In this document: piece by piece, positions 4,375-29,407 of the stretch | How the letters are laid out: every line of letters starts with the position of its first letter | Numbering within the stretch: the first letter of the stretch is position 1 | NCBI GenBank assembly: GCA_965207785.1 | Contig: CBDBNO010000012.1 | Location: 187,808-251,807, forward strand | Source of the DNA: Alphaproteobacteria bacterium | GTDB taxonomy: Bacteria > Pseudomonadota > Alphaproteobacteria > SP197 | Reading direction: 5' to 3' | Length of the DNA stretch: 64,000 nucleotides | Notes under the pieces: generated by a model | What the model saw: only the letters and a program-made list of their open reading frames with translations | What the model was told of the DNA's origin: nothing | Database searches by the model: none | Translations under genes and position numbers: made by a program

Positions 4375-4485
4375 CCGTCAAATGCTCAGGATTCGCCGTC
4401 AAGTGTCCAGGAATCACCGTCAAGTGTTCCAGGAATCGCCGTCAAATGTCGTAGGAATCGCCGTCAAATGCGCCAGGATTTTGCA
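4375..4485. repeat. IS left-end (istA-proximal) terminal repeat array, 5 copies of CCGTCAA[A/G]TG
   Basis: Copies sit at 4375, 4396, 4417, 4439 and 4461, at 21-22 bp spacing. They are the reverse complement of the 1208..1262 array. Confidence 0.85.
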
Positions 4486-5000
4486 AACGCGCCACCGATG
4501 AGCGGTCCACTGAGCGCGGAGGCCGTCCATGTCAGTGAAAGACATGCAACAACTCTGGGTACGAGTCGATCCGGGAAGAAGCGGTTCTGGGCGATGAAGA
4601 CCAGGGCGACCAACGCTCCGCCGCCGAGTCCCTGCACCGTGCGGCCTGCAAGCAGGACCGGCATCGCCGGCGCCGCCGCGCACGCGATGCATCCGAACGT
4701 GTAAAGCAGCGTCGAAGCCAGCATGGCACGGCGCAGCCCGGCCCGCGCCACGAAGGCGCTCGCCGCCGCTGCGGCCATGACCGAGCCCATCAGGTAAAGG
4801 GCAAATGCCCAGCTGATGAGGCGCAGACCGCCGATATCTCCGATCGCCTCCGGGAGGGTCGTCGCTGCCAGCAACGTGTTGGCCGCATGCAACCAGATCG
4901 CCAGGCACATCACGAGCAGCAGGGGCAGGTGCCGGCGCGCCACCACCTCGCGCCAGCTGACGGACTGCGGATCCGGACCCGGCCGCGCGTTCTCCTGCAT
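4486..5000 (-). pseudogene. MFS-type transporter gene, 5' fragment (TM1-TM5), interrupted by the IS21-family element
   Basis: Translation MQENARPGP...LLLVMCLAIWLHAANTLL... shows MFS motif A-like VARAGLRRAML and TM4 motif RTVQGLGGGAL. It is transcribed divergently from soxR. Confidence 0.7.
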
Positions 5001-5068: not shown

Positions 5069-5551
5069 ATGCAGACCACGCGTTGGCAGAAAACCAGCCT
5101 CTCGATCGGCGACGTCGCCCGACGCACGGGACTCGCCACGTCGGCGCTCCGCTTCTACGAGGAAATGGCGCTGATCGAGTCGCTGCGCACGCCGGGCAAT
5201 CAGAGGCGCTATGCGCGTGACGTGATTCGACGGGTTTCGTTCATCCGTGCCGCGCAACGGGTGGGCCTGACACTCGAGGAGGTGCGCGCAATGCTCGACG
5301 ACCTGCCCGCGGGCCGGTCCCCGACCCGCCGGGACTGGCAGGAGCTTGCAAGACGCTGGAAACCATGGCTCGACGAACGGATCGCCGCCCTCGAACGCTT
5401 GCGGGACCAGCTTTCGTCATGCATCGGTTGCGGCTGCCTGTCGCTCGACAGCTGTGCTCTCTACAACCGCGGTGATGCCGCCGGCCGCCTGGGCCCCGGT
5501 CCGCGTTACCTTCTGGGCGATTCTCCTGAGGATCTCCAGACCCGGAATTGA
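5069..5551 (+). CDS. soxR: Redox-sensitive MerR-family transcriptional activator SoxR
   Basis: It has a MerR HTH (IGDVARRTGLATSALRFYEE) and the C-terminal [2Fe-2S] cysteine motif CIGCGCLSLDSCALYN. Confidence 0.9.
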   Translation: MQTTRWQKTSLSIGDVARRTGLATSALRFYEEMALIESLRTPGNQRRYARDVIRRVSFIRAAQRVGLTLEEVRAMLDDLPAGRSPTRRDWQELARRWKPWLDERIAALERLRDQLSSCIGCGCLSLDSCALYNRGDAAGRLGPGPRYLLGDSPEDLQTRN

Positions 5552-6008: not shown

Positions 6009-6234
6009 GGACTTCTCCCTGTCCCCGCCTCCGCCACTCGCCCCTGATTCGTCCGGACGCGGTTGACGCCTCCTGCGTCCCTCAGACGCTCAAGGATCCT
6101 CATCTGCCATCACTGATCCACGACCGCGCCGTTCTGCCGCTGCCGTATGCGAGACTGGCATTCCCCGGCAGACACGGCCCAATTCGCCTCGGGGCGAAAC
6201 CAACTGCGTTTCACCGAAATGAGAAGTGAACGAC

Positions 6235-6636
6235 TCAAGATGGCCGATGGGATGCGGCGCGCCGGACGCGAAAGATCGAATGGGCAGTAGCGGTCCGTAG
6301 CGTGGATACACGTACCCGGCGATCTCGGTGGTGGAAAGTGAAGTCGTCGATGCATGCATGCGAAATGAATCCGCCGTCAATGTCCCCCGCCGTGCCGTCC
6401 CGCATCGCCTGGGACAGGAAACGGGCGATGCGCTGCGTAAGGCTTTGGTTGGTTCCGGTTCCCTCGCCGCCCAAAGGAAGTGTGCGGACAAGATTGTGAT
6501 TCGGATACTCCTCGGCAAAGCGTATGGCGATCTGATACGCAGACATGAACGGGCGGTCGAGAGGGTGATCGGCTTCGTACTCTGGACAGCTCGCCAGAAT
6601 CCGGCGCAGATGATCAATATTGAAGTCGCGTCTCAT
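6235..6636 (-). CDS. Hypothetical protein, about 105-133 aa, no recognisable family
   Basis: The ORF is MRRDFNIDHLRRILASCPEYEADHPLDRPFMSAYQIAIRFAEEYPNHNLVRTLPLGGEGTGTNQSLTQRIARFLSQAMRDGTAGDIDGGFISHACIDDFTFHH... The C-terminal roughly 30 codons are Arg-rich and may not be real. A competing frame (6090..6617) overlaps it. Confidence 0.4.
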   Translation of the reverse strand: MRRDFNIDHLRRILASCPEYEADHPLDRPFMSAYQIAIRFAEEYPNHNLVRTLPLGGEGTGTNQSLTQRIARFLSQAMRDGTAGDIDGGFISHACIDDFTFHHRDRRVRVSTLRTATAHSIFRVRRAASHRPS

Positions 6637-6698
6637 TGGGAGTCAGTCAAGGTTCCTGCGAGGGAGACGCAGTCTACCCGAACGTGTTCTTGAACCGA

Positions 6699-7451
6699 TC
6701 AACGAATAGCGTTCCGGCGACGAGAGCGCTTGCGGAATCTGCACTCCTCGCGGAGAAAGCACCTTCGGCAGTTCGGCTTCGTCTTCTTACAGGTGGACTT
6801 TCCCAAGCGAAAGAGCTGGGCGTCGAGCTTCCATGACCCCTGAGGCATCATCTCCCTTGCGATGTCGAGAGCGGCCTCTGCGGTGACCATGTTGCCGGTG
6901 AAGACGCGGCCCAACACTCTTCGCACATGGATGTCCGCCTTGAGTTCACCGACCCCTTCAATCTGCTTGGTGTCATAGAGTATCCCGGCGGTCATCCGGG
7001 AAATCTGCGGTCCTACCCCCATCCGTTCGAGTCGCTTCTGAGTCACGCACGAGGATTGGTTCGTCCAGATGTTGCGAGCATCACCGCCATATCGCTCTAC
7101 GATTTCCCTGCCGATTCTCTGGACGCGGGCATGTGCAGCAGGGAACCGGTGGAGGTTGTGGCGACGACGTACCGTCAGGGTGTTCCACCTGCGAATTCCA
7201 ACGATCTCATCCCACAGATCACGCGGATCACCAAGATCGTCCTCGGCAAAACGACGGGCATTTTCCCAAACCAGGCCGACCCTCATCTGATAGTCGAGGA
7301 TGCACCCGAGCAAGAACTTGTTGGCTGACCGCTTGTCCGCCCGGCGGCCATTCAGACGGGAGAGGAAACCTGTGTGCATGGGGGGCTGCCTGCGACGCTC
7401 TTTGCGAATCAGCTTGCGAACGCGCTTGCACTTGGGGCTGCTTGGTTTCAT
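6699..7451 (-). CDS. Endonuclease III-like HhH-GPD DNA glycosylase with a [4Fe-4S] cluster loop and a Lys/Arg-rich N-terminal tail
   Basis: The Fe-S cluster loop CKKTKPNCRRCFLREEC has C-x6-C-x2-C-x5-C spacing. The HhH region reads GVGPQISRMTAGIL, and the catalytic Asp is kept in ADIHVRRV. The N-terminal tail is MKPSSPKCKRVRKLIRKERRRQ. The start has a GAAGGAAG ribosome-binding site. Confidence 0.75.
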   Translation of the reverse strand: MKPSSPKCKRVRKLIRKERRRQPPMHTGFLSRLNGRRADKRSANKFLLGCILDYQMRVGLVWENARRFAEDDLGDPRDLWDEIVGIRRWNTLTVRRRHNLHRFPAAHARVQRIGREIVERYGGDARNIWTNQSSCVTQKRLERMGVGPQISRMTAGILYDTKQIEGVGELKADIHVRRVLGRVFTGNMVTAEAALDIAREMMPQGSWKLDAQLFRLGKSTCKKTKPNCRRCFLREECRFRKRSRRRNAIR

Positions 7452-7599
7452 GGTCACTTCCTTCAGTGTGGGCTGCGTGGCACTGCGACCCAAGATGCTG
7501 AGATCCTGGATGACTCACTGTGTAGAAATCTGGATATGGTAGGACGGGGGCGTTCGGGCATGCCAATTCGTCTGGGGGCTGGACGAGGCGTCCCTTCGC

Positions 7600-8058
7600 T
7601 CAGCGTCGCTGATATTCTCTGATCTTGCGGAAGGCCCCGGTCGTGGGGACACGATAGGCGAACCAGTCTGTCCTCATGACTTCGCGTTGTTCATCCCTGT
7701 AAGACTTGCCGTCCCTAACCAGGACGTGGTCGCCTGGGGCTCTTGTCTCCTGCCTGATCACAATGCTGTTCAGCGTCGGAAGACCGTTCACCCGGCAATA
7801 TTCTCCGACGATCCCCAACGGAATCCCCAAGGTGACTCCCGCCTTGGGATCCATTCCCATTCTTTTCGCGAGCTCACCGTAGGTGATGAGCACGTCTTTC
7901 CGTCGGCGAGGTGGCCGGGGTTCGTCTCGCCATTTCCATTCCTTCATGACGTGGGCCGTGAGGATCATCCAGACGCGTTGTGCCTGCACGTGCCGCCGGT
8001 CGCCGATACCAAACTCCTTAGCTTCAGGAACGGTGATGTCTCTCATTGTTTGAGCCAT
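7600..8058 (-). CDS. MGMT/Ogt-fold (alkyltransferase-like) winged-helix protein lacking the PCHR active-site motif, 152 aa
   Basis: ITYGELAKRMGMDPKAGVTLGIPLGIVGEYCRVNGLPTLNSIVIRQETRAPGDHVLVRDG aligns to the MGMT C-terminal domain (VSYGQLA...GAARAVGAA..NPISIVVPCHRV..G..GY). PCHRV is replaced by IRQET. The ribosome-binding site is GGAGAAAG. Confidence 0.55.
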   Translation of the reverse strand: MAQTMRDITVPEAKEFGIGDRRHVQAQRVWMILTAHVMKEWKWRDEPRPPRRRKDVLITYGELAKRMGMDPKAGVTLGIPLGIVGEYCRVNGLPTLNSIVIRQETRAPGDHVLVRDGKSYRDEQREVMRTDWFAYRVPTTGAFRKIREYQRR

Positions 8059-8345
8059 TTTGCTTTCTCCGTGCAATATTGCACATCTTGCGCTACATTG
8101 CACGAAGAATCAACCCATTGGCGTGATCGTCCGATATTCGTCTACCCGGTGGGAGAGACCGCAATACATGGCAGCCGGGTTGGCGGCGATCGGAGCCAGA
8201 CTCTTGATAGCCAAATAGGGCTGCCCTGCAGTCGATGACTATCATCCGGTTCGTGATGTGTTGGGTTCTGTCCGAAGGCCCGGAACAAGGCCAATGGAAC
8301 GGCGGTGCGGCGTGTTGCCGACGACACATCCGGGCCCTGGCCTGA

Positions 8346-11300
8346 TCAACCGGCGCTGCTGACGCGTTGTGGCCGGCGCACGTCTTGAGACGCGGCGCTG
8401 CGGAATGCGACAAGAGCCTCGACCTCGGCGGCGCGGGCCCTGGCGATGGCTTTGGCCTTGACATGACCAAAGCCGCGAATCTGCGAAGGGACGTTGGCAA
8501 GGTCCACGGCGGCGGCATGGTTCGCGGGGGTCAGTGCGACAACAACCTCGTTCATGCGATCGAAGTAGTCGGAAATCAGCCGGCGTTCCTCGCGCCGTTC
8601 GCGCTGCCAGCCAAAGGGATCGAGAACGCTGCCACGCAGCCGCCGCATGGCCGCAAGGCAGCGAAACACCACGAGGATCCAGCCACCGAACGTCCGTTTC
8701 ACCCGGTGGCCGGTCACCGGGTCGCGATGCGAGATCAACGGCGGCGCCAGGTGGAGCTGCAACCTCGGTTTGCCCTCGAAGGTTTCCTGCAGTCTCTTCG
8801 CGAATGTGCCGTCGACATAGAGCCGCGCCACTTCGTACTCGTCCTTGTAGGACATCAGCCTGAAGGCCTGGCGGGCGACGGCATCGGCAAGCTCGTCCCT
8901 GCCCGGCGTCAGCCTGCGTTCGGCATCCGAGACGCGATGGACAAGATCCAGGTACCGCTCGGCCCACGAACGGTCCTGCCAGGACGCGAGGAAGGCGGCG
9001 TAGCGTTCCACGAGCGCCTCACCGGTGTCCTGGTCTTCCTCCGCCGACGCCAGATTGCGGACCGCCGCCATGTCATGGGCCGCATGCCGTCCCAGGAGCA
9101 CGGCCTGCCTGTTGGTCTCGACGGCGACGCCGTTGAGTTCGATGGCCCTGTCGATGGCGTGACCCGGGAGCGGCAGAAGGCCCCTTTGCAGGGCATAGCC
9201 GAGCATGAAGAGATTGGCAGCAATGCCGTCGCCGAGCAGACTTCTGGCGAGGCGTGTGGCATCGACGACGTGCATCGCCGCGCTGCCGACCGCGTCCTCG
9301 AGGGCTTTCTCAAGGGCCTCAAGCGGATACTCGAGATCGGGGTCGAGGGCAAAGGCGCCCGTCATCGTCATCTCGGTGTTGACGACGGCCGTGGTCGTGC
9401 CGGGCGCCAGTTTGCGGAGCGTGTCCGGCGCCGCCGCTGTGACCATGTCGCAGGCCAGCAGCAGGCGGGCCCCGCCGTCGGTGATGCGCGGCGCGTGAAG
9501 CTCGCCGGGAGACCTGGCGATTCGGATGTGACTGACCACAGCACCGCCTTTCTGGGCCATGCCGATCATGTCGAGAACCGTGACACCGTTGCCTGCGACA
9601 TGTGCCGCCATGCCGAGAAGCGCGCCGACCGTGACCACTCCGGTGCCGCCAATGCCCGCGACCACGATGTCCCACGGCCTGTCGAGAGGCGCCATGGCCG
9701 GTTGCGGCAGGTGTCCCGACGCCAGGGAATGGAGCGCATCCTTGTTGCTGCGGCGCGGCCGGACACCGGTGACGGTCACAAGAGCCGGACAGAATCCCTT
9801 GATGCAGGACATGTCCATGTTGCACGACGACTGATCGATTTGCCGCTTGCGGCCGGACGGAGTCGCCACCGGAACGATCGCCACGCAGTTCGACTTGAGG
9901 CCGCAGTCGCCGCACCCTTCGCACACCTCCTCGTTGATGATGACACGCTCCAGAGGAATCGGCAGGGTGCCGCGCTTGCGACGCCGGCGCTTCTCGGCAG
10001 CACAAGTCTGGTCGTAGATGAGAACCGTAAGGCCGGGAACCTTCGCCAGGGCACGCTGGACCAGCTCCAGGTCGTCGCGATGATGCACCGTGCAGCCCTG
10101 TGGCCAGCGCGTCTTCGCCGGGTACTTCGCCGGATCGTCGGTGACGACACGGATCTCCCGTGCCCCCTCCGCCGCCACCTGGCGGGCGATGCGGGGCGGA
10201 CTGACATCAATGTCGGCGCTCTGCCCGCCGGTCATCGCAACGGCATCGTTGCACAGGATCTTGTAGGTCATGTTGACGTTTGCCGCCGCGGCCGCGCGGA
10301 TCGCCAGCAGGCCCGAGTGGCTGTAGGTGCCGTCGCCCAGATTGACGAAGACATGGTCCGTGGCAACGAACGGAGCCTGTCCGATCCACGAGGCGCCTTC
10401 CGCGCCCATGTGCGTGAAGGTTGCGGTGTTCCTCCCCATGCCGAGCGCCAGGTAGTGGCAGCCGATGCCGGCCAGGGCCCGGCTTTCCGGGGGCACCCTG
10501 GTCGACGTGTTGTGCGGGCAGCCGGCGCAGAAATAGGGCGTGCGCTCGAGAGGTGGCGGCTCACCGGCAGGGACTGGCTGATGGCGGGCACGGAACCCTT
10601 CGGTGAAGGTCGTGGAACCGGTGAGCGCGTCGAGACGGGGCGCGATGATGCGGGCGATTGCTGACGGATCCAGCTCGCCATCCGACGCCACGAGAGGTGC
10701 TCCCGCAGGGTCATGCTTGCCGCTCACGCGTGGCCGGTGCGTCGCCGGCAGATGATAGAGAGCCTCCTTGATCTGGGTTTCCATGAGAGCGCGCTTTTCC
10801 TCGATGACGAGGATGTCCTCGAGACCCGTGGCGAACTCTTCGAGACCTTCCGTCTCCAGGGGCCACGTCATGCCCACCTTGTAGAGACGCAGGCCGACAG
10901 CCCCCATGGCGGCATCGTCCAGTCCGAGATCATCCAGCGCCTGGGCCAGATCAAGCCAGGACTTCCCGGCCGCCACGATGCCAAGGCGCGCCTGGTGGCT
11001 GCCTCCGACGATTCGGTCGAGACGGTTCGCCCGGGCAAAGGCCCTGGCGGCGCCGAGCTTGTGGTTCTGCAGGCGCTCTTCCTGGCGCATCGGCTCATCG
11101 GGCCAGCGGATGTTGAGTCCGCCGGCCGCCGGGTCGGCAGAGGGAGGTACGGCAACCGGCCGATCCGGCACGAGTTCGATCGACGAGGATGCATCGAGGT
11201 TGTCGGCCGTCGTCTTGAAGCCGATCCAGCATCCCGAATGGCGGGACATTTCCATGCCGATGATTCCGAAGTCGAGAATCTCCGCCACGCCGGCCGGGTT

Positions 11301-11813
11301 GAGAACCGGAATGCCGGCGGCCACGAAGGCCTGCTCGCTCTGGTGCGGCAGTGTCGAGGACCGGCAGCCGTGATCGTCGCCGGCGATCAGCAGTACTCCG
11401 CCATGCCTCGCCGATCCGGCCAGATTGCCGTGTCTGAAGGCATCGCCGGAACGGTCGACTCCCGGTCCCTTGCCGTACCAGTAGGCGAACACCCCGTCGT
11501 GACGGGCGTCATCGAACAACTGGGCCTGCTGGCTGCCCCAGATGGCCGTCGCCGCGAGATCCTCGTTGATGCCCGGCTGGAAACGGATGCGGTGTTCTTT
11601 CAGGTGTTCCGCGGCGCGCCAGAGCTGCTGGTCATAGCCGCCGAGGGGGGAGCCGCGGTATCCGGAAATGAACCCGGCGGTGTCGAGCCCCGCCCTGGCG
11701 TCGCGCCGGCGCTGCTCCATGGGCAGGCGGACCAGCGCCTGGATGCCCGTCAGGTAGACACGCCCTTCTTCAAGGACGTACTTGTCATCGAGGCTGACCT
11801 CGCCTTGCGGCAT
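8346..11813 (-). CDS. Indolepyruvate ferredoxin oxidoreductase family protein (fused alpha/beta, about 1155 aa)
   Basis: It has the TPP-binding and 2x[4Fe-4S] motifs (CEGCGDCGLKSNC...CIKGFCP) and the N-terminal LDDKYVLEEGRVYLTGIQALVRLP typical of the IOR family. Confidence 0.85.
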   Translation of the reverse strand: MPQGEVSLDDKYVLEEGRVYLTGIQALVRLPMEQRRRDARAGLDTAGFISGYRGSPLGGYDQQLWRAAEHLKEHRIRFQPGINEDLAATAIWGSQQAQLFDDARHDGVFAYWYGKGPGVDRSGDAFRHGNLAGSARHGGVLLIAGDDHGCRSSTLPHQSEQAFVAAGIPVLNPAGVAEILDFGIIGMEMSRHSGCWIGFKTTADNLDASSSIELVPDRPVAVPPSADPAAGGLNIRWPDEPMRQEERLQNHKLGAARAFARANRLDRIVGGSHQARLGIVAAGKSWLDLAQALDDLGLDDAAMGAVGLRLYKVGMTWPLETEGLEEFATGLEDILVIEEKRALMETQIKEALYHLPATHRPRVSGKHDPAGAPLVASDGELDPSAIARIIAPRLDALTGSTTFTEGFRARHQPVPAGEPPPLERTPYFCAGCPHNTSTRVPPESRALAGIGCHYLALGMGRNTATFTHMGAEGASWIGQAPFVATDHVFVNLGDGTYSHSGLLAIRAAAAANVNMTYKILCNDAVAMTGGQSADIDVSPPRIARQVAAEGAREIRVVTDDPAKYPAKTRWPQGCTVHHRDDLELVQRALAKVPGLTVLIYDQTCAAEKRRRRKRGTLPIPLERVIINEEVCEGCGDCGLKSNCVAIVPVATPSGRKRQIDQSSCNMDMSCIKGFCPALVTVTGVRPRRSNKDALHSLASGHLPQPAMAPLDRPWDIVVAGIGGTGVVTVGALLGMAAHVAGNGVTVLDMIGMAQKGGAVVSHIRIARSPGELHAPRITDGGARLLLACDMVTAAAPDTLRKLAPGTTTAVVNTEMTMTGAFALDPDLEYPLEALEKALEDAVGSAAMHVVDATRLARSLLGDGIAANLFMLGYALQRGLLPLPGHAIDRAIELNGVAVETNRQAVLLGRHAAHDMAAVRNLASAEEDQDTGEALVERYAAFLASWQDRSWAERYLDLVHRVSDAERRLTPGRDELADAVARQAFRLMSYKDEYEVARLYVDGTFAKRLQETFEGKPRLQLHLAPPLISHRDPVTGHRVKRTFGGWILVVFRCLAAMRRLRGSVLDPFGWQRERREERRLISDYFDRMNEVVVALTPANHAAAVDLANVPSQIRGFGHVKAKAIARARAAEVEALVAFRSAASQDVRRPQRVSSAG

Positions 11814-11973
11814 GAGTGGAGGACCGCTTGCTTGGAGGGGTGAACGCCGTTCACCATAGCGGCCATGGACCATGCCGGCGAGTCACGATTGACCGTCCCG
11901 GGAGTGTAGCCTTCGGCGGGGAAGTGGACTAAAGAGGCGGGATCAGACCAGACCTGCCTGTGAGGAATCCGCC

Positions 11974-24482: not shown

Positions 24483-24504
24483 AAATGCGGCGCCGACCCC
24501 GTTT

Positions 24505-25442
24505 TCAGTTGGCAATGTACCGATACTTGTCGCGACGTAACCTGCCCTCCTGCAGGAGGTCCTTGACAGCCCGTTTCGCGTCGGCGCTGGAAAGCGACAC
24601 ACCGGTCACCTGTTCAACGCCCGCGCGAATGGCGGACATTTTGCAGCCTGTTTCTCCGGCCCGGGCAATGACGCCGGCAACCTCGCCCATCGCCTGCGCA
24701 ACTTCTGCGGAAACGGGCTTGCGGGGCCGCCCACGCCTGCCGCCTCCCGATGGCGCCAACGATGCGGTCGACTCCGGTTCTTCCGTTTCACCTGTCGCCG
24801 GATCTTCCTCGAAGGGAATCGAGTCGTCCTCGGACTGCGCCGCCTCCGATTCCTGACCCCCATCAGATCCGGTTGCCGAATTGTCGACATTCGACGTCAT
24901 GCCGTCATCCAAAGGAGTTTCAGATTCCGCCTGAGCGGCCTCGGACGCGGGTTCCCCGACAGCCACGAAGCGGTAGCCCTCGCGACGAATGCTCATTTCC
25001 GACAGAAGTGACTGAAGAACTTCGTCAAGCGCCTTGCGAGCCGGCTCCTCGCCCTTGCGATTGGCGAGCAATCCGCTCAAGGCTGAACGCTTGATGCCGT
25101 ATTGTCCGGAATTGGAAATCGCGGCGAGCACTTTCTTGGGTGCAACCCTGACATGTCCTCCGGCGGTCCTTCCGGTAGCCTTGCGACCCCGTCCCTTTCC
25201 GGAAGGAGTCTTGCCGGTTTTCCTGGCAGGGCGCCTGCCCCTCCTCGCCGGCTGGCGCTCCGCAACGGCATCACCGATCAGCGCTTCCAGGCTTTGTGCC
25301 GCCTTTTGCATGTCCTCGATCGATTTTCCGACAGTCGCGGCTTCGGCCAGCAATGTCTGGCGCCTTTCCTCTTCGGATGCAATTTCCCTGTTAATCAGCA
25401 CCAGGGCCTCTGCAATCTTGGCGTTGCTCACGTGGATTCCCT
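24505..25442 (-). CDS. Hypothetical DNA-binding protein with an N-terminal coiled coil, AT-hook-like GRGRK / GRPRKP repeats, an acidic linker and a C-terminal winged-helix-like region
   Basis: It has a GTG start with a GGGAAAGGGAA ribosome-binding site. The motifs are RRGRRPARKTGKTPSGKGRGRKATGR and GGGRRGRPRKPV, followed by an acidic stretch DGGQESEAAQSEDDSIPFEEDPATGETEEPE. Confidence 0.55.
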
Positions 25443-25587
25443 TTCCCGGTTTGCCTCGAGATTCCGGTATGTTCCAATATTCACTAAGGCCGGGGTGCCC
25501 AAACGTCAATCCCTTTGTGCAGGAAGAAGGATTTCATTTGGGAAAGTGTGGTAGGTTCCGCATCCAATTGCTGTTGGAGTTCGGCAG

Positions 25588-26325
25588 ATGGCAGACAGTG
25601 ACACCAAGGAAGGCTGGAACGAGGATGATTCACGCCACTTCATCGACTACGGCGCCTATTTTGTGCCCGAGCGGGAGACACAGATTGACACAATTTGCAG
25701 TGTCATTCCCGTGCCGCCGGAAAACTCCCTGATTGTCGACATCTGTTGCGGTGAAGGTCTTCTCGCATCGGCCCTGGCCCGACGATTCAGCCAATGCCAT
25801 ATATTGGCGCTTGATGGCTCATCGGCCATGCTCGAGGCAACAGGCAGGCGCCTCGGCAGGACCGGAACGTCCTGGACAACGTCCTTCATGGACATTTCCG
25901 ATTCGGGCTGGCGGCAATTCGACCGTCCGGTCCATGCCTTCGTGTCATCGCTTGCCGTCCACCACCTCGATGGACCGGGAAAGGCCTCCTTGTTCAGGGA
26001 TCTCGCGGCGGCCCTTGCACCCGGCGGCGTGATCGTCATCTGCGATCTCGTCGAGGCGCGGCGCCGGGAAGGCCTCACTCTGTGGGAGCGTCACTGGGAT
26101 GACGGCGTCAGGGAAAGGGCCATTCGTCTCGATGGCAACGAGAAGATGCTGCACTTCTTCCGCGAGGACGGCTGGAACTATTACAGCGACCCCGAAGCCG
26201 ATCCGGTCGACATGCCATCCGGTCTTTTCGAACAGCTCAAGTGGCTAGAGGAAGCCGGTCTGGTGGATGTCGATCTCCACTGGCTTGTGGCCGGACACGC
26301 GATCTTTTCAGCCCGCAAACCCTGA
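25588..26325 (+). CDS. Class I SAM-dependent methyltransferase
   Basis: It has a Rossmann-like SAM motif (VDICCGEGLLA, ILALDGSSAML) and is 245 aa. Confidence 0.75.
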   Translation: MADSDTKEGWNEDDSRHFIDYGAYFVPERETQIDTICSVIPVPPENSLIVDICCGEGLLASALARRFSQCHILALDGSSAMLEATGRRLGRTGTSWTTSFMDISDSGWRQFDRPVHAFVSSLAVHHLDGPGKASLFRDLAAALAPGGVIVICDLVEARRREGLTLWERHWDDGVRERAIRLDGNEKMLHFFREDGWNYYSDPEADPVDMPSGLFEQLKWLEEAGLVDVDLHWLVAGHAIFSARKP

Positions 26326-26334
26326 GACCTGCCG

Positions 26335-28626
26335 TCAGGCGCATTTGGAGAATCCGCAGGACGTGCAAAGATGGCACCCCTCCTGATGGATGAGACCGGG
26401 AAGGCCGCATCGCGGACAACTGGCGGAGCGGCGATGCGCTTCGCCAGCGGAACCGATGCTCTCTCCCGAATCGCTGATGAAACCGATGTTGGTCATGTGG
26501 GTCTCGAGAACATCGCCGATGGCGGCCAGCAGCGAGGGCACATAACGACCGTCCATCCATGAGCCGCCGCGCGGATCGAACACCGCCTTCAGTTCCTCGA
26601 CCACGAAACTCACGTCGCCACCACGGCGGAACACCGCCGAGATCATCCGGGTGAGACCCAGCGTCCAGGCGTAGTGATCCATGTTCTTCGAATTGATGAA
26701 GACCTCGAACGGCCGCCTCCGGCCATTCCTGACCACATCGTTCACGGTCAGGTAGATCGCATGGTCACTCTCCGGCCAGCGCAGCTTGTAGGTCCTCCCC
26801 GGGAGAACCTCGGGACGGTCGAGGGGCCGGGTCAGGTGAATGACGCCGGCCGTTTCGAACGCATCTCCCGGGGTTTCGGATCCGGGCTCGTCAAGGGGCA
26901 GCAAAGGCTCGGCGTCCGCGGCTGCGGGCGCCTCGAGGACAGCACCCGTGACGTCGTTCGGCCGGTAGGTCGTGCATCCCTTGCATCCCAACCGGTAGGC
27001 CTCGAGATAGACATCCTTGAAGTCCTCGAAGGCAATGTCCTCGGGCACGTTGATGGTCTTGGAGATCGAGCTGTCGATGTACTCCTGGACCGCCGCCTGC
27101 ATGCGGATGTGGTCGGCCGGCCTCAAGCCCTGGGCGTCCACGAAGTAGTCGGGCAAGGGAGCGGACTCGCCTCGCATCCGGCGCCACAGGCGGAGCGCAA
27201 AGTCGGTGACCTCCTCGCTCCTCCTGGTGCCGTCGGGCATCAGCACGTTGCGCGTGTAGGAGAAGGCAAAGACCGGTTCGAGACCAGACGAGATGTTGTC
27301 GGCGAAGAGCGAAATGGTGCCGGTCGGGGCGATCGATGTCAGCAGCGCATTGCGGATGCCGTTGGCGGCGATCGCCTCGCGCACATCCCGGTCGAGTCCG
27401 GCAACGGTGTCGCCCGCCAGATAGGCTTCGGCATCGAAGAGCGGGAAGGGTCCCTTTTCCTTCGCCAGGCGCGTCGATGCCAGATAGGCCTCGCGGCGCA
27501 GGTCTGCAAGCCAGCTGCGGGCCAGCGCGACCGCCCGTTCGCCGCCGTAATGCGCCTTCATCATGATGAGTGCGTCGGCAAGACCGGTGACGCCCAGGCC
27601 GATGCGCCGCTTGGCCACCGCCTCCTGGCGCTGTTCCTCGAGAGGAAAGCGCGAGACGTCGACGACGTTGTCCATCAGCCTCACCGCCGCCGCAACGGTG
27701 CGGGCGAATGCCTCGTGATCGAACCGGGCCTCATCGCCGAAGGGATCGGTGATGAAGCGCGTCAGGTTGAGCGATCCCAGCAGGCAGGCGCCATAGGGCG
27801 GAAGCGGCTGTTCGCCGCACGGGTTGGTGGCGGAAATGGTCTCGCAGTAGTGCAGGTTGTTCCGCCGGTTGATGCGGTCGATGAAGACGACGCCGGGCTC
27901 CGCACAGGCATAGGTGCTGCGCATGATCCGGTCCCACAGGGCACGGGCCGACACCGTTCCATGGACGACCCCGTCAAAGGTCAGCTTCCATGCATCGTCC
28001 TGCCGGACCGCGGTCATGAAGGCATCGCTGACCAGCACCGAGAGATTGAACATGCGCAACCGCCCGGCTTCCTGCTTGGCGTCGATGAAAGCCTCGATGT
28101 CCGGATGGTCGCAGCGCATGGTCGCCATCATCGCGCCGCGCCGATGGCCGGCGCTCATGATGGTGCGGCACATGGAATCCCAGACATCCATGAAGGTCAA
28201 CGGCCCGGAGGCGTCGGCGCCCACGCCACGAACGGCGGCACCCTTCGGCCTCAGAGTCGAGAAGTCGTAGCCGATCCCGCCACCGGCCTGCATGGTGAGT
28301 GCCGCTTCCTTCAGGTGATCGAAGATACCGCCCATGTCATCGGGAATGGTCCCCATGACAAAGCAGTTGAAGAGCGTGACATTCCTCTCGGTGCCCGCAC
28401 CGGCCAGAATCCTGCCGGCAGGCAGGAAGCGGTAGCCCGACATGGCTTGAAGGAACTGTTCCTCGATTCGGCAACGGTTCCCGGCGTCCTCCACCGACGC
28501 GCAGGCATTCGCCACCCGTCGCCAGGTCGCCTCGACATTGTCGTCCACCGGCGTGCCGTCGGGGCCCTTGAGACGGTACTTCATGTCCCAGATCTGCAGG
28601 GCAATGGGGGATTGTGCGTCGCTCAT
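26335..28626 (-). CDS. nrdJ: Adenosylcobalamin-dependent (class II) ribonucleotide reductase NrdJ
   Basis: It has the class II RNR active-site region (..NPCGEQPLPPYGACLLGSLNL..) and a C-terminal zinc ribbon CPRCG...CHLCTSCG. The start is MSDAQSPIALQIWDMKY. A longer ORF to 28713 would overlap plsC. Confidence 0.9.
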   Translation of the reverse strand: MSDAQSPIALQIWDMKYRLKGPDGTPVDDNVEATWRRVANACASVEDAGNRCRIEEQFLQAMSGYRFLPAGRILAGAGTERNVTLFNCFVMGTIPDDMGGIFDHLKEAALTMQAGGGIGYDFSTLRPKGAAVRGVGADASGPLTFMDVWDSMCRTIMSAGHRRGAMMATMRCDHPDIEAFIDAKQEAGRLRMFNLSVLVSDAFMTAVRQDDAWKLTFDGVVHGTVSARALWDRIMRSTYACAEPGVVFIDRINRRNNLHYCETISATNPCGEQPLPPYGACLLGSLNLTRFITDPFGDEARFDHEAFARTVAAAVRLMDNVVDVSRFPLEEQRQEAVAKRRIGLGVTGLADALIMMKAHYGGERAVALARSWLADLRREAYLASTRLAKEKGPFPLFDAEAYLAGDTVAGLDRDVREAIAANGIRNALLTSIAPTGTISLFADNISSGLEPVFAFSYTRNVLMPDGTRRSEEVTDFALRLWRRMRGESAPLPDYFVDAQGLRPADHIRMQAAVQEYIDSSISKTINVPEDIAFEDFKDVYLEAYRLGCKGCTTYRPNDVTGAVLEAPAAADAEPLLPLDEPGSETPGDAFETAGVIHLTRPLDRPEVLPGRTYKLRWPESDHAIYLTVNDVVRNGRRRPFEVFINSKNMDHYAWTLGLTRMISAVFRRGGDVSFVVEELKAVFDPRGGSWMDGRYVPSLLAAIGDVLETHMTNIGFISDSGESIGSAGEAHRRSASCPRCGLPGLIHQEGCHLCTSCGFSKCA

Positions 28627-28678
28627 CAAGGCATCTCTTGCCACTCTCGTGACATCATAACGTTCCTCATATGTACCA

Positions 28679-29407
28679 TCAACTGCGGTTCCCTTTCCTG
28701 GCTTCGGCGACAAGCTCGCTGGTTCCGTTTTCTATCCTTGATTCAAGCTCTTCCATGAATCGTGACCGTGGCAGGGCAGGCGGAATCGCCTCGAGAAACG
28801 CCATGACGGCGCACCCCGGCCTCTTTTTGATCTGCCGGCGCGGCCAGAAGACCCCACAGTTGAGCGCCACCGGAACCACCGGCACCCCCAGCGCGACATA
28901 AAGTCCGGCAACGCCACGCTGGTAGGCAACCCTTTCGCCTGGAGCCGTGCGTGTCCCTTCGGGAAAGATCACGATGCACCTGCCCTCGTCGGTGACCCTT
29001 GCCGCGTGACCCAGGATCCGGCGCAGCGAGGCAAGGCCGGCACGGCGATCAATGGCCAGGCAGTCCATGGCCGAAACGAACCAGCCGACAACCGGAAGAC
29101 GAACGATTTCCTGCTTGATGACGAAACAGGCATCCGGAAACAGCCGCACGAGAGCATAGGCTTCCAGGGCCGACTGATGTTTGACCGCAATCAGTGCCGG
29201 ACCGCACGGCAGGTTGTTCCTGCCCCTCACCTCGAGCCTGAGTCCGGCCACCACGTCGAGGAGAAAGAGTTGCACGCCGGCAAACCAGACAGGAACCCGG
29301 GCGGCCAGGCGGCGCGCAAGGAGCAGTGCCGGCAACATCGTGAGACCCAGAAACACCATGACGCCAAGCGACAGGACGAGAAACGCGCATGATCTGACGG
29401 CGGTCAT
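28679..29407 (-). CDS. plsC: 1-acyl-sn-glycerol-3-phosphate acyltransferase
   Basis: The HxxxxD acyltransferase motif (VKHQSALEAY, within AVKHQSALE) and the FPEGTR motif are present. The ATG overlaps the upstream gene stop (ATGA). Confidence 0.8.
   Translation of the reverse strand: MTAVRSCAFLVLSLGVMVFLGLTMLPALLLARRLAARVPVWFAGVQLFLLDVVAGLRLEVRGRNNLPCGPALIAVKHQSALEAYALVRLFPDACFVIKQEIVRLPVVGWFVSAMDCLAIDRRAGLASLRRILGHAARVTDEGRCIVIFPEGTRTAPGERVAYQRGVAGLYVALGVPVVPVALNCGVFWPRRQIKKRPGCAVMAFLEAIPPALPRSRFMEELESRIENGTSELVAEARKGNRS

What the first reader, a model, noticed from the sequence alone, without database searches (positions are those of the whole stretch)
6699..7451. An EndoIII-family glycosylase with a complete Fe-S loop but no catalytic lysine, and a Lys/Arg-rich N-terminal tail
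The C-x6-C-x2-C-x5-C loop (CKKTKPNCRRCFLREEC) and the catalytic Asp (ADIHVRRV) are conserved. The HhH segment reads GVGPQISRMTA with a 3-residue insertion and Gln/Arg where Nth has the Schiff-base Lys. This predicts a monofunctional glycosylase of the MutY or MIG type, or a binding-only protein. The 25-residue tail (MKPSSPKCKRVRKLIRKERRRQPP) is atypical for bacterial Nth or MutY and suggests extra DNA contacts or partner recruitment.
Basis: partly seen in the sequence, partly recalled or inferred. Interest (0 to 1): 0.55.

Follow-up and report, generated by a model that had tools for sequence, protein, structure and literature searches.

The report
Mobile Fe-S DNA glycosylase, relocated lysine
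This gene encodes a real but uncharacterised relative of the DNA-repair enzyme endonuclease III. It sits on a small horizontally acquired DNA block, and its family keeps an essential-looking lysine at one of two alternative positions, so it is probably an active DNA base-excision enzyme and possibly an anti-phage one.

Summary

- The basic "tail" is coding. It has a Shine-Dalgarno site, is conserved across the family, and is modelled as a confident helix, probably EndoIII helix alpha-A.
- "No catalytic lysine" is true only for the canonical slot. Of 278 distinct family members, 94.6% carry Lys at exactly one of positions 149 or 171 (Asp minus 2), and the swap recurred in at least 3, and up to 8, lineages. 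This protein has K171, so a bifunctional enzyme is plausible.

The gene lies in a 2-kb low-GC block shared with an integrative element elsewhere. The family has no fixed partner gene, often neighbours mobile or defence genes, and fuses to Sel1, TPR, WD40 and toxin domains. A role like the defence glycosylases (Dag) is plausible but untested.

The parts
6699..7451 (-). Coding sequence of the 250-aa HhH-GPD/[4Fe-4S] glycosylase-like protein (stop codon included)
   Evidence: ORF listing and translation. 203 homologues at E<=1e-3 in the word-indexed search, none with a Pfam domain. AlphaFold2 model pLDDT 94.3, pTM 0.88.
7457..7463 (-). Shine-Dalgarno-like AAGGAAG, 5 nt upstream of the ATG at 7451
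   Evidence: Read directly from the sequence. Supports the ATG at 7451 rather than an internal start or the TTG at 7493.
7389..7436 (-).
7287..7325 (-). Residues 43-55 (ANKFLLGCILDYQ): nearly invariant helix and loop matching the Nth LLIAVLLSAQ segment; Q55 sits at the Nth Gln41 wedge slot and C50 at the MutY Glu37 slot
   Evidence: Conservation: K45 invariant; N44, F46, L48, I51, D53, Y54, Q55 at 90% or more. The placement rests on a weak HMM alignment to EndoIII 9nzc (domain 1) and on manual alignment, so it is an inference.
6972..7052 (-). Residues 134-160: helix-hairpin-helix (helix 134-143, hairpin MGVG 144-147, helix 148-160)
   Evidence: DSSP of the model. hhalign aligns GVG 145-147 with Nth GVG 116-118. 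G147, R152, M153 and G156 are invariant.
7005..7007 (-). Codon of Q149, the slot of the Nth Schiff-base Lys120
   Evidence: hhalign local alignment. It is the second residue of the second HhH helix, as in Nth. Across the 322 family sequences that cover this region the column is mostly Q, with K in 33 and otherwise mainly A, E, N or T.
6933..6971 (-). Residues 161-173 (TKQIEGVGELKAD): enlarged Gly-rich loop ending in K171 (nt 6939-6941) and the catalytic Asp D173 (nt 6933-6935)
   Evidence: D173 aligns with Nth D138 and is Asp in nearly every member. K171 is present in 238 of 278 distinct members and absent in 28 of the 31 that have K149.
6741..6791 (-). Residues 221-237: [4Fe-4S] cluster loop C221-x6-C228-x2-C231-x5-C237
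   Evidence: Aligned to Nth C187/C194/C197/C203. All four Cys are present in 306 of 322 family sequences.
6191..8212 (.). Low-GC (58-59% against about 67% in the flanks) horizontally acquired block carrying the glycosylase and two unannotated genes
   Evidence: Composition profile. 85.7% DNA identity over 2,055 nt to L001 7213-9262, which lies inside an element with a TrwC relaxase, a resolvase and an integrase.
7600..8058 (-). Upstream neighbour, 152 aa, unannotated. Linked to the glycosylase only in the closest relatives, so not an obligate partner.
   Evidence: 79-82% identical copies beside the glycosylase in L001 and L002. 76 homologues, none annotated. No Pfam, NCBIfam, PHROG, PADLOC or PDB hit.
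6235..6636 (-). Downstream neighbour, 133 aa, unannotated. Also occurs without the glycosylase.
   Evidence: 88-89% identical copies in L001 and L003. 86 homologues. A homologue in L006 sits in an integrase/toxin-antitoxin island where no ORF matched the glycosylase family.

Best explanation
The gene encodes a folded, probably catalytically competent member of an undescribed, sparsely distributed branch of the [4Fe-4S]-containing HhH-GPD DNA glycosylases. This is the branch that holds EndoIII/Nth, MutY and MIG.

Shown:
- the HhH-GPD fold;
- the four-Cys cluster loop;
- the invariant Asp173 at the N-cap of its helix;
- Gln149 at the canonical lysine slot;
- a conserved N-terminal helix;
- acquisition on a 2-kb low-GC block also found inside an integrative/conjugative-type element;
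- no conserved partner gene across the family.

Inferred mechanism: the enzyme binds duplex DNA through the HhH and the cluster loop, flips a target base into a pocket bordered by the enlarged 161-172 loop, and cleaves the N-glycosidic bond with Asp173. Lys171, two residues before the Asp and expected to point the same way on an extended segment, takes over the job that Lys120 does in Nth. In about 10% of family members the lysine sits at the canonical position 149 and residue 171 is Ala, Ser or Glu. The enzyme is therefore more likely a bifunctional glycosylase/AP-lyase than a MutY-type monofunctional one.

Inferred biology: it is an accessory, horizontally moving gene. The most likely job is attack on non-canonical (modified) bases in invading DNA, like the Dag defence glycosylases, rather than housekeeping repair.

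Rough sub-confidences: active glycosylase of a distinct Fe-S HhH-GPD branch 0.8; Lys171 as functional substitute for the canonical Lys 0.5; defence role 0.35. The overall confidence of 0.55 is for the statement as a whole.
For: Fold and motifs:
- Foldseek TM 0.62-0.66 to the same set.
- hhalign to a verified E. coli Nth sequence aligns the GVG hairpin, D173 with D138 and all four Cys.
- Model pLDDT 94.3.

Distinct family:
- No Pfam hit.
- NCBIfam nth scores 21.7 bits against a 211.7 cut-off and mutY 24.5 against 286.5.
- 159 clusters at E<=1e-30 among 1.84 billion representatives.

Lysine swap:
- Of 278 distinct sequences, 235 have K171 only, 28 have K149 only, 3 have both and 12 have neither. 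Fisher p = 1e-25, ignoring phylogeny.
- It is the only Lys column pair, and the top pair for any residue type, with this pattern.
- K149-only sequences fall in 8 separate NJ clades.
- Three clades are clearly closer to K171-type relatives than to any other K149 clade: 83% against 51%, 78% against 63%, and 70% against 63% identity.

Start and tail: SD site, conservation, helix.

Mobility:
- GC dip.
- Shared block inside a TrwC/integrase element.
- Other members sit next to an integrase plus DDE transposase, ICE-like genes, and SIR2 plus AbiEii.
- Among 118 immediate neighbours from 36 loci there are integrase, transposase, HNH, PIN, Cas1, Schlafen-like helicase and NADAR-DarT1 hits, plus PADLOC hits to mad2 x3, MTase/PglX and several PDC candidates.

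Fusions: 11 of 20 long members carry Sel1, TPR or WD40 repeats. Others carry an ADP-ribosyltransferase toxin domain or a HerA-type ATPase.

Precedent: Dag1-17 are unannotated, mobile HhH-fold glycosylases in locally AT-rich DNA that defend against 7-deazaguanine phages. Dag1 is bifunctional and needs a Lys and an Asp (bioRxiv 10.1101/2025.10.29.685425).
Against: - No biochemical data exist for any member.
- I could not obtain model coordinates, so the proximity of K171 to D173 and to the flipped sugar is argued from sequence geometry and co-variation, not measured.
- In about 6 of the roughly 15 divergent members lacking both lysines, residue 171 is Arg. That fits a charge or phosphate-contact role better than a Schiff-base nucleophile.
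- The two sequence alignments disagree on the register of the HhH.
- The defence context is suggestive only. No background rate was computed, many neighbours are housekeeping genes, PADLOC does not hit the protein, and no homologue was found in the phage or plasmid collections.
- In the window the block has no integrase, att repeat or adjacent tRNA.
Confidence: 0.55

Rival explanations
1. One reading: a monofunctional glycosylase of the MutY or MIG type. Asp173 activates water, there is no amine nucleophile, and K171 only contacts DNA or the base.
For: No Lys at the canonical slot in this protein. MIG and MutY are as close structurally as Nth. Arg replaces K171 in a few divergent members, which is compatible with a non-nucleophilic role. 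The second-best NCBIfam hit is a model named 'monofunctional DNA glycosylase' (DR2438), although far below its cut-off: 28.3 against 400 bits.
Against: The strict either/or placement of Lys at 149, the bifunctional slot, or at 171, recurring in several lineages, is hard to explain if the lysine were a dispensable contact. There is no MutY C-terminal 8-oxoG-recognition domain, because the protein ends 13 residues after the last Cys. The slot of MutY Glu37 holds Cys, Ala or Ser (weak alignment). mutY model score is 24.5 against 286.5.
Confidence: 0.25
2. A binding-only sensor of odd bases. This would be an inactivated EndoIII-like domain, as in END nucleases, that recruits or regulates a partner.
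For: END nucleases use a catalytically dead EndoIII/OGG-like domain to sense hypermodified phage DNA (PMC12191111). One family member fused to a HerA-type ATPase (P0303) has lost the Asp and both Lys. Many members are fused to protein-interaction repeats.
Against: This protein and nearly all of the family keep Asp173; about 95% keep one active-site Lys, and 306 of 322 keep the four Cys. It stands alone with no conserved nuclease or other partner next to it. The two flanking genes are linked only in its closest relatives.
Confidence: 0.07
3. An ordinary housekeeping base-excision-repair paralogue, an Nth-like enzyme for oxidised or alkylated bases, that merely looks divergent.
For: Same fold and cluster as Nth. 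Some members sit among metabolic genes. Deinococcus carries three divergent EndoIII paralogues (PDB 4unf, 4uob, 8a5g).
Against: The distribution is very sparse and patchy: 159 clusters at 50% identity, scattered over Acidobacteriota, Nitrospirota, Chloroflexi, Clostridia and Alphaproteobacteria. There is a local GC dip and a shared mobile block. Synteny is not conserved. Fusions to toxin and repeat domains are not seen in repair glycosylases.
Confidence: 0.13

Closest known systems
Endonuclease III (Nth; E. coli 2abk, G. stearothermophilus 1p59/1orn, human NTHL1)
   Different: About 17% identity. Gln instead of Lys120. Six extra residues between the hairpin and the Asp. Lys at Asp-2. Fails TIGR01083 (21.7 against 211.7 bits) and has no PF00730 hit. 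It is a mobile accessory gene rather than a core gene.
MutY and MIG (Mth TDG, 1kea): Fe-S HhH-GPD monofunctional glycosylases
   Different: No MutY C-terminal domain. The MutY Glu37 slot is Cys, Ala or Ser. The family conserves a Lys that alternates between the bifunctional slot and Asp-2, which MutY and MIG are not known to do.
Dag defence-associated glycosylases (Dag1-Dag17; bioRxiv 10.1101/2025.10.29.685425)
   Same: HhH-superfamily fold invisible to sequence annotation. Single-gene. Encoded in mobile, locally AT-rich DNA near integrases, transposases or defence genes. Dag1 is bifunctional with an essential Lys and Asp.
   Different: The Dags were found in Vibrio integrons. The paper's main text contains neither 'iron-sulfur' nor 'Fe-S', and most Dags cluster in a branch apart from housekeeping enzymes, with some near Tag and AGOG. 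No Dag sequences were available for comparison. No phage phenotype is known for this family.
END nucleases with an inactivated EndoIII domain (PMC12191111)
   Same: An EndoIII/OGG-like domain recruited into conflict with modified-base phages.
   Different: There the domain has lost its catalytic residues and is fused to a PLD nuclease. Here the catalytic residues are kept and the protein stands alone.
TIGR03252 (HhH-GPD-type base excision DNA repair protein, hypothetical equivalog)
   Same: Best NCBIfam hit, over residues 46-154, the six-helix barrel half.
   Different: 32.3 bits against a 136.5 cut-off. The match does not cover the Asp or the Fe-S half. That family is itself uncharacterised.

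Membership tests
HhH-GPD superfamily | Helix-hairpin-helix with a Gly-containing hairpin | tested here: met
   Model helices 134-143 and 148-160 flank MGVG 144-147. hhalign aligns GVG with GVG of Nth. G147 is invariant.
HhH-GPD superfamily | Gly/Pro-rich loop followed by a conserved catalytic Asp | tested here: met
   The IEGVGELKAD loop ends in D173, aligned to Nth D138. Asp is present in nearly all of 322 sequences.
HhH-GPD superfamily | Overall fold | tested here: met
HhH-GPD superfamily | Pfam PF00730 (HhH-GPD) at gathering threshold | tested here: not met
   No PF00730 hit even at E<=1. Precomputed Pfam is '-' for all 120 listed homologues.
Endonuclease III (Nth) | [4Fe-4S] loop C-x6-C-x2-C-x5-C | tested here: met
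   C221/228/231/237, aligned to Nth C187/194/197/203.
Endonuclease III (Nth) | Schiff-base Lys in the HhH (K120) | tested here: not met
   Q149 or M153 occupies the slot.
Endonuclease III (Nth) | Scores above the curated equivalog cut-off (TIGR01083, NF007978) | tested here: not met
   21.7 against 211.7 bits, and 15.5 against 405 bits.
Endonuclease III (Nth) | Excision of oxidised pyrimidines with beta-lyase activity | not testable with these tools
   Needs enzyme assays.
MutY | C-terminal NUDIX-like 8-oxoG recognition domain | tested here: not met
   The protein ends at residue 250, 13 residues after the last Cys.
MutY | Catalytic Glu (E. coli E37) in the first barrel helix | tested here: inconclusive
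   By weak HMM alignment and manual alignment the slot is C50, which is Cys, Ala or Ser across the family. The N-terminal half cannot be aligned with significance.
MutY | TIGR01084 / NF008132 cut-off | tested here: not met
   24.5 against 286.5 bits, and 13 against 427 bits.
MIG / Mth thymine-DNA glycosylase | Fe-S HhH-GPD enzyme with Tyr at the Lys slot and T:G/U:G specificity | tested here: inconclusive
Dag defence-associated glycosylases | HhH-superfamily fold in a stand-alone small protein | tested here: met
   No conserved partner.
Dag defence-associated glycosylases | Location in mobile or defence-rich, compositionally atypical DNA | tested here: met
   GC 58-59% against about 67%. The block is shared with a TrwC/integrase element. 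Mobile or defence neighbours occur in several other loci. No background rate was computed.
Dag defence-associated glycosylases | Sequence or profile relationship to Dag1-Dag17 | not testable with these tools
   The supplement lists locus tags only. Family motifs were not found in it.
Dag defence-associated glycosylases | Protection against phages with modified (7-deazaguanine) DNA | not testable with these tools
   Needs plaque assays.
END-nuclease inactivated EndoIII sensor domain | Loss of catalytic residues and fusion to a nuclease | tested here: not met
   D173 and K171 are retained. It is a single-domain protein.

The most novel reading that the evidence does not exclude
This is the founding example of a new family of mobile, iron-sulfur-cluster HhH-GPD glycosylases in which the Schiff-base lysine has repeatedly hopped between the canonical HhH slot and the Asp-2 position. 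The family would act as a single-gene, or repeat- or toxin-fused, immune effector that excises modified bases from invading DNA and nicks it. That would extend glycosylase-based immunity to the EndoIII/MutY branch and far beyond Vibrio integrons.
Probability: 0.3. Interest if true: 0.7.

Novelty: new variant of a known kind. Interest (0 to 1): 0.5.

Why it matters
If the lysine at Asp-2 really replaces the canonical HhH lysine, the usual rule of thumb would misclassify this family and perhaps others. That rule reads [quoted passage not shown]. The natural swap also offers a clean test of how the nucleophile can be repositioned in the HhH-GPD active site.

If the family is a defence glycosylase, it adds an Fe-S-cluster lineage, spread over many phyla and fused to Sel1, TPR, WD40, toxin and ATPase modules, to the newly recognised glycosylase arm of prokaryotic immunity. 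It would also give a possible new reagent for detecting modified bases.

If neither holds, it is simply one more divergent EndoIII paralogue on a small genomic island.

Tried and rejected
1. Internal start or non-coding tail: rejected. There is an SD site 5 nt upstream of the ATG at 7451, and the N-terminal residues are conserved and modelled as a helix.

2. A three-gene system with the two flanking genes: rejected as a family trait.
 - The 2-kb block is shared only with relatives of about 80% identity or more.
 - L002 has genes 1+2 and L003 has genes 2+3.
 - The gene-3 family occurs without the glycosylase.
 - Among 86 loci no neighbour cluster is shared beyond close synteny groups. An apparent 11-locus neighbour cluster is a surface-protein gene pair in one set of closely related contigs.
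 - A single-linkage artefact through antisense ORFs over BrnT/BrnA in L001 and L006 was recognised and discarded.

3. Phage or plasmid origin: no relative in IMG/VR, in PLSDB by tblastn or in PHROGs. The best BFVD structural match is only a haloarchaeal virus EndoIII at E = 3.6e-4.

4. Known defence family: no PADLOC hit.

5. Annotation of the neighbours: Pfam, NCBIfam, PHROGs, PADLOC and PDB sequence searches all came back empty.

6. Sequence proof that the N-terminal helix equals Nth alpha-A: not significant (hhalign E = 0.46). The claim rests on the fold match and on knowledge of the EndoIII structure.

7. Island boundaries: no att-like direct repeats, no nearby tRNA, and no promoter or terminator signal above shuffled controls.

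8. Comparison with Dag sequences: the supplement holds no sequences.

9. The afdb50 fold library was unavailable. The exact protein and P0121 were not retrievable by exact look-up.
Full report
**1. What is there**

The minus strand of window 6699-7451 holds a 250-codon ORF starting at the ATG at 7451. AAGGAAG lies 5 nt upstream. A longer TTG start at 7493 is possible on paper, but homologues begin at the ATG position.
- CKKTKPNCRRCFLREEC, residues 221-237;
- ADIHVRRV, residues 172-179;
- GVGPQISRMTA, residues 145-155;
- the basic N-terminus, which is 24 residues with 11 K/R.

The whole protein is very basic, with 59 K+R against 25 D+E.

**2. Is it an EndoIII relative?**

Yes, but a distant one.
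- Pfam gives no hit at all.
- NCBIfam gives only far-sub-threshold hits: TIGR03252 HhH-GPD (32 bits against a 136.5 cut-off), a Deinococcus 'monofunctional DNA glycosylase' model, mutY and nth.
- phmmer against PDB sequences finds G. stearothermophilus EndoIII at E = 6.5e-5. A family profile finds EndoIII chains at 6e-7, covering only the Asp-to-cluster half.
- An AlphaFold2 model built on a 79-sequence alignment is confident throughout: pLDDT 94.3, pTM 0.88.
- Foldseek agrees, with TM 0.62-0.66.

The protein therefore belongs to the Fe-S branch of the HhH-GPD superfamily but is equidistant from its named families.

**3. The family**

The word-indexed search found 203 homologues. All are unannotated and without Pfam domains, mostly 240-250 aa. 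They come from metagenomes and MAGs labelled Acidobacteriota, Nitrospirota, Chloroflexi and Clostridia. An 83%-identical copy sits in a Defluviicoccus MAG.

An exhaustive profile search of 1.84 billion cluster representatives found 159 at E<=1e-30 and 623 at E<=1e-10. This is a small, patchy family.

In the 79-sequence alignment:
- invariant residues are K45, P76, L79, H101, R109, I113, D124, R126, G147, R152, M153, G156, D160, D173, V179, G181, R182, W207, D210, G217, P226, C228, C231 and C237;
- C221 is nearly invariant (90% or more).

**4. The lysine question**

The alignment register at the HhH is ambiguous by sequence.
- phmmer and global hhalign align PQISRMTA with PGVGRKTA, which puts M153 at the Lys slot.
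- Local hhalign against E. coli Nth aligns GVG with GVG, which puts Q149 at K120, followed by a 4-residue and a 2-residue insertion. I verified that Nth sequence as identical to 2abk.

The model supports the second register. Helix 134-143, the four-residue hairpin 144-147 and helix 148-160 make Q149 the second residue of the second HhH helix, as K120 is in Nth. S151 falls on the small residue of the GhGxxxA consensus (the consensus is established knowledge).

Column 149 is Lys in about 10% of members. Those members, and essentially only those, lack the otherwise conserved Lys at column 171, two residues before the catalytic Asp (LKAD becomes LAPD or LAVD).

Counts:
- Over 322 sequences: K171 without K149 about 275; K149 without K171 29; both 4; neither about 15, mostly the most divergent members, about six of which have Arg171.
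- Over 278 distinct sequences: 235, 28, 3 and 12. That is 94.6% with exactly one Lys, Fisher p = 1e-25 ignoring phylogeny.

Controls and independence:
- A blind scan of all column pairs and 13 residue types returns K149/K171 as the top pair and the only Lys pair. The only other pair, W89/W91, looks like a register shift.
- In an NJ tree the K149-only state falls in 8 separate clades.
- For three clades the nearest relative is clearly a K171-type sequence rather than another K149 clade: 83% against 51%, 78% against 63%, and 70% against 63% identity. The swap therefore happened at least three times independently.

My reading is an inference. One lysine is needed in the active site and can be supplied from either backbone position. 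On an extended segment the Asp-2 side chain points the same way as the Asp. In hOGG1 the equivalent residue, Pro266, lines the base pocket (from my memory of Bruner et al. 2000, not checked here).

This protein has Q149, K171 and D173. The deduction 'no Lys, therefore MutY/MIG-type monofunctional or binding-only' is therefore unsafe, and a bifunctional enzyme with a relocated nucleophile is at least as likely. The Arg171 variants and the lack of coordinates to measure distances keep this at about 50%.

**5. The N-terminal 'tail'**

It is translated: there is an SD site, and K7, R10, V11, L14, L15 and R19 are conserved in about 85% of members. It is modelled as a confident helix over residues 6-21.

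I conclude that the 'tail' is most likely the normal alpha-A helix. It is more basic in this clade but is not an unusual appendage. The C-terminus is equally basic.

**6. Genomic setting**

GC drops from about 67% to 58-59% between about 6000 and 8500, one of three dips in the window.

Window 6191-8212 is 85.7% identical in DNA to a segment of a 94-kb metagenomic contig. That segment lies between a BrnT/BrnA pair and unknown genes, inside an element with a TrwC relaxase, a resolvase and an integrase. In the window the block sits between a glyoxalase-family gene and an 1175-aa gene (8346-11873, minus strand) that I read as indolepyruvate ferredoxin oxidoreductase from its translation, without a family search. 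It has no integrase, att repeats or nearby tRNA.

The block carries two further same-strand genes:
- 7600-8058, 152 aa;
- 6235-6636, 133 aa.

Both families are unannotated and give no hit in any library. They are not obligate partners. Other relatives carry only one of them, the 133-aa family occurs alone in another integrase/toxin-antitoxin island, and more distant glycosylase homologues share no neighbour.

**7. Hints to function**

Across 36 non-redundant loci the 118 nearest ORFs are a mixture. Housekeeping genes are present. So are two integrases, two DDE transposases, two HNH and two PIN proteins, Cas1, a Schlafen-type helicase and a DarT1-associated NADAR. PADLOC hits among them include mad2 x3, type II MTase/PglX, DolB and several PDC candidates.

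Individual loci show:
- an integrase plus transposase directly upstream;
- ICE-type genes;
- an overlapping Fer4-glycosylase-SIR2 string next to AbiEii.

Of 20 long family members examined:
- 11 are fused to Sel1, TPR or WD40 repeats;
- one is fused to an ADP-ribosyltransferase toxin domain;
- one is fused to a HerA-type ATPase, and that one has lost the Asp and the lysines.

In my experience, enzymatic domains fused to such repeats and toxins are typical of prokaryotic conflict systems. The searches did not turn up a description of this particular domain.

Recent work gives precedent. HhH-fold glycosylases that annotation does not recognise (Dag1-17) are encoded in mobile, locally AT-rich DNA and defend against 7-deazaguanine phages, and Dag1 behaves as a bifunctional Lys/Asp enzyme. 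EndoIII-like domains also serve as sensors of hypermodified DNA in END nucleases.

The present family fits the Dag profile in fold, stand-alone architecture and context. However, it has an Fe-S cluster, which the Dag paper never mentions, and I could not compare sequences. No relative was found in the phage or plasmid collections.

**8. Verdict**

- It is partly wrong: a compensating lysine exists, and the tail is a conserved structural helix.
- The thing itself is a new, uncharacterised variant of a known kind of enzyme, carried on mobile DNA.
- The most interesting testable points are the recurrent Lys149/Lys171 exchange and a possible role as a defence glycosylase. Neither is established, so interest is moderate.

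Noticed in passing
window 7600-8058 (-): 152-aa gene upstream of the glycosylase with its own SD (GGAGA). It belongs to a family of 76 unannotated proteins with no hit in Pfam, NCBIfam, PHROGs, PADLOC or PDB. The stretch ITYGELAKRMG...GLPTLNSIVIRQETRAPG looks to me like a winged-helix DNA-binding module, but this was not tested.
   Followed up: partly
window 6235-6636 (-); L001 8817-9218; L003 6820-7221: 133-aa gene downstream, from a family of 86 unannotated proteins. Public gene calls in L001 and L003 place a gene on the opposite strand here, but the same-strand frame is better conserved (88.7% against 85.7% aa identity). The family also occurs without the glycosylase in an integrase/BrnT/HigB island (L006).
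   Followed up: partly
P0303 (783 aa), P0211 (659 aa), P0223 (462 aa): Unusual family members. P0303 is fused to a HerA/DUF87 ATPase and has lost Asp173 (now Glu) and both lysines, so it may be a sensor-only derivative. P0211 matches the family profile in four stretches and carries DUF7891. P0223 carries a C-terminal ADP-ribosyltransferase exoenzyme domain.
   Followed up: partly
L088 9210-11433: In a 2.9-Mb contig the family member is packed end to end between a 4Fe-4S ferredoxin-domain gene and a SIR2-family gene, sharing or overlapping gene boundaries. An AbiEii toxin gene lies 1.5 kb downstream.
   Followed up: no
L003 1-786 and 11038-11955: The island carrying the glycosylase in this 2.6-Mb contig is flanked on both sides by genes with the same Glu_synthase/FMN_dh domains. 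This suggests insertion into, or next to, a duplicated glutamate-synthase-like locus. A HepT/MNT toxin-antitoxin pair is inside the island.
   Followed up: no
family alignment, query positions 89 and 91: The only other column pair with an 'exactly one of two' pattern is Trp at 89 or 91 (92.8% of sequences). It is probably a one-turn register shift or an alignment slip rather than a functional swap.
   Followed up: no
window 24485-25732: A second GC dip (57.8-61.5%) whose ORFs of 110 aa or more have no Pfam hit. It lies beside a SAM-dependent methyltransferase (25588-26325) and a ribonucleotide reductase with a TSCPD domain (26335-28713). It may be another acquired segment.
   Followed up: partly
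window 4464-5000 (-): This 178-aa ORF matches only the first 150 of 347 positions of the MFS_1 transporter profile. The gene may be truncated, or it may continue in another frame next to the MerR regulator gene at 5069-5551.
   Followed up: no
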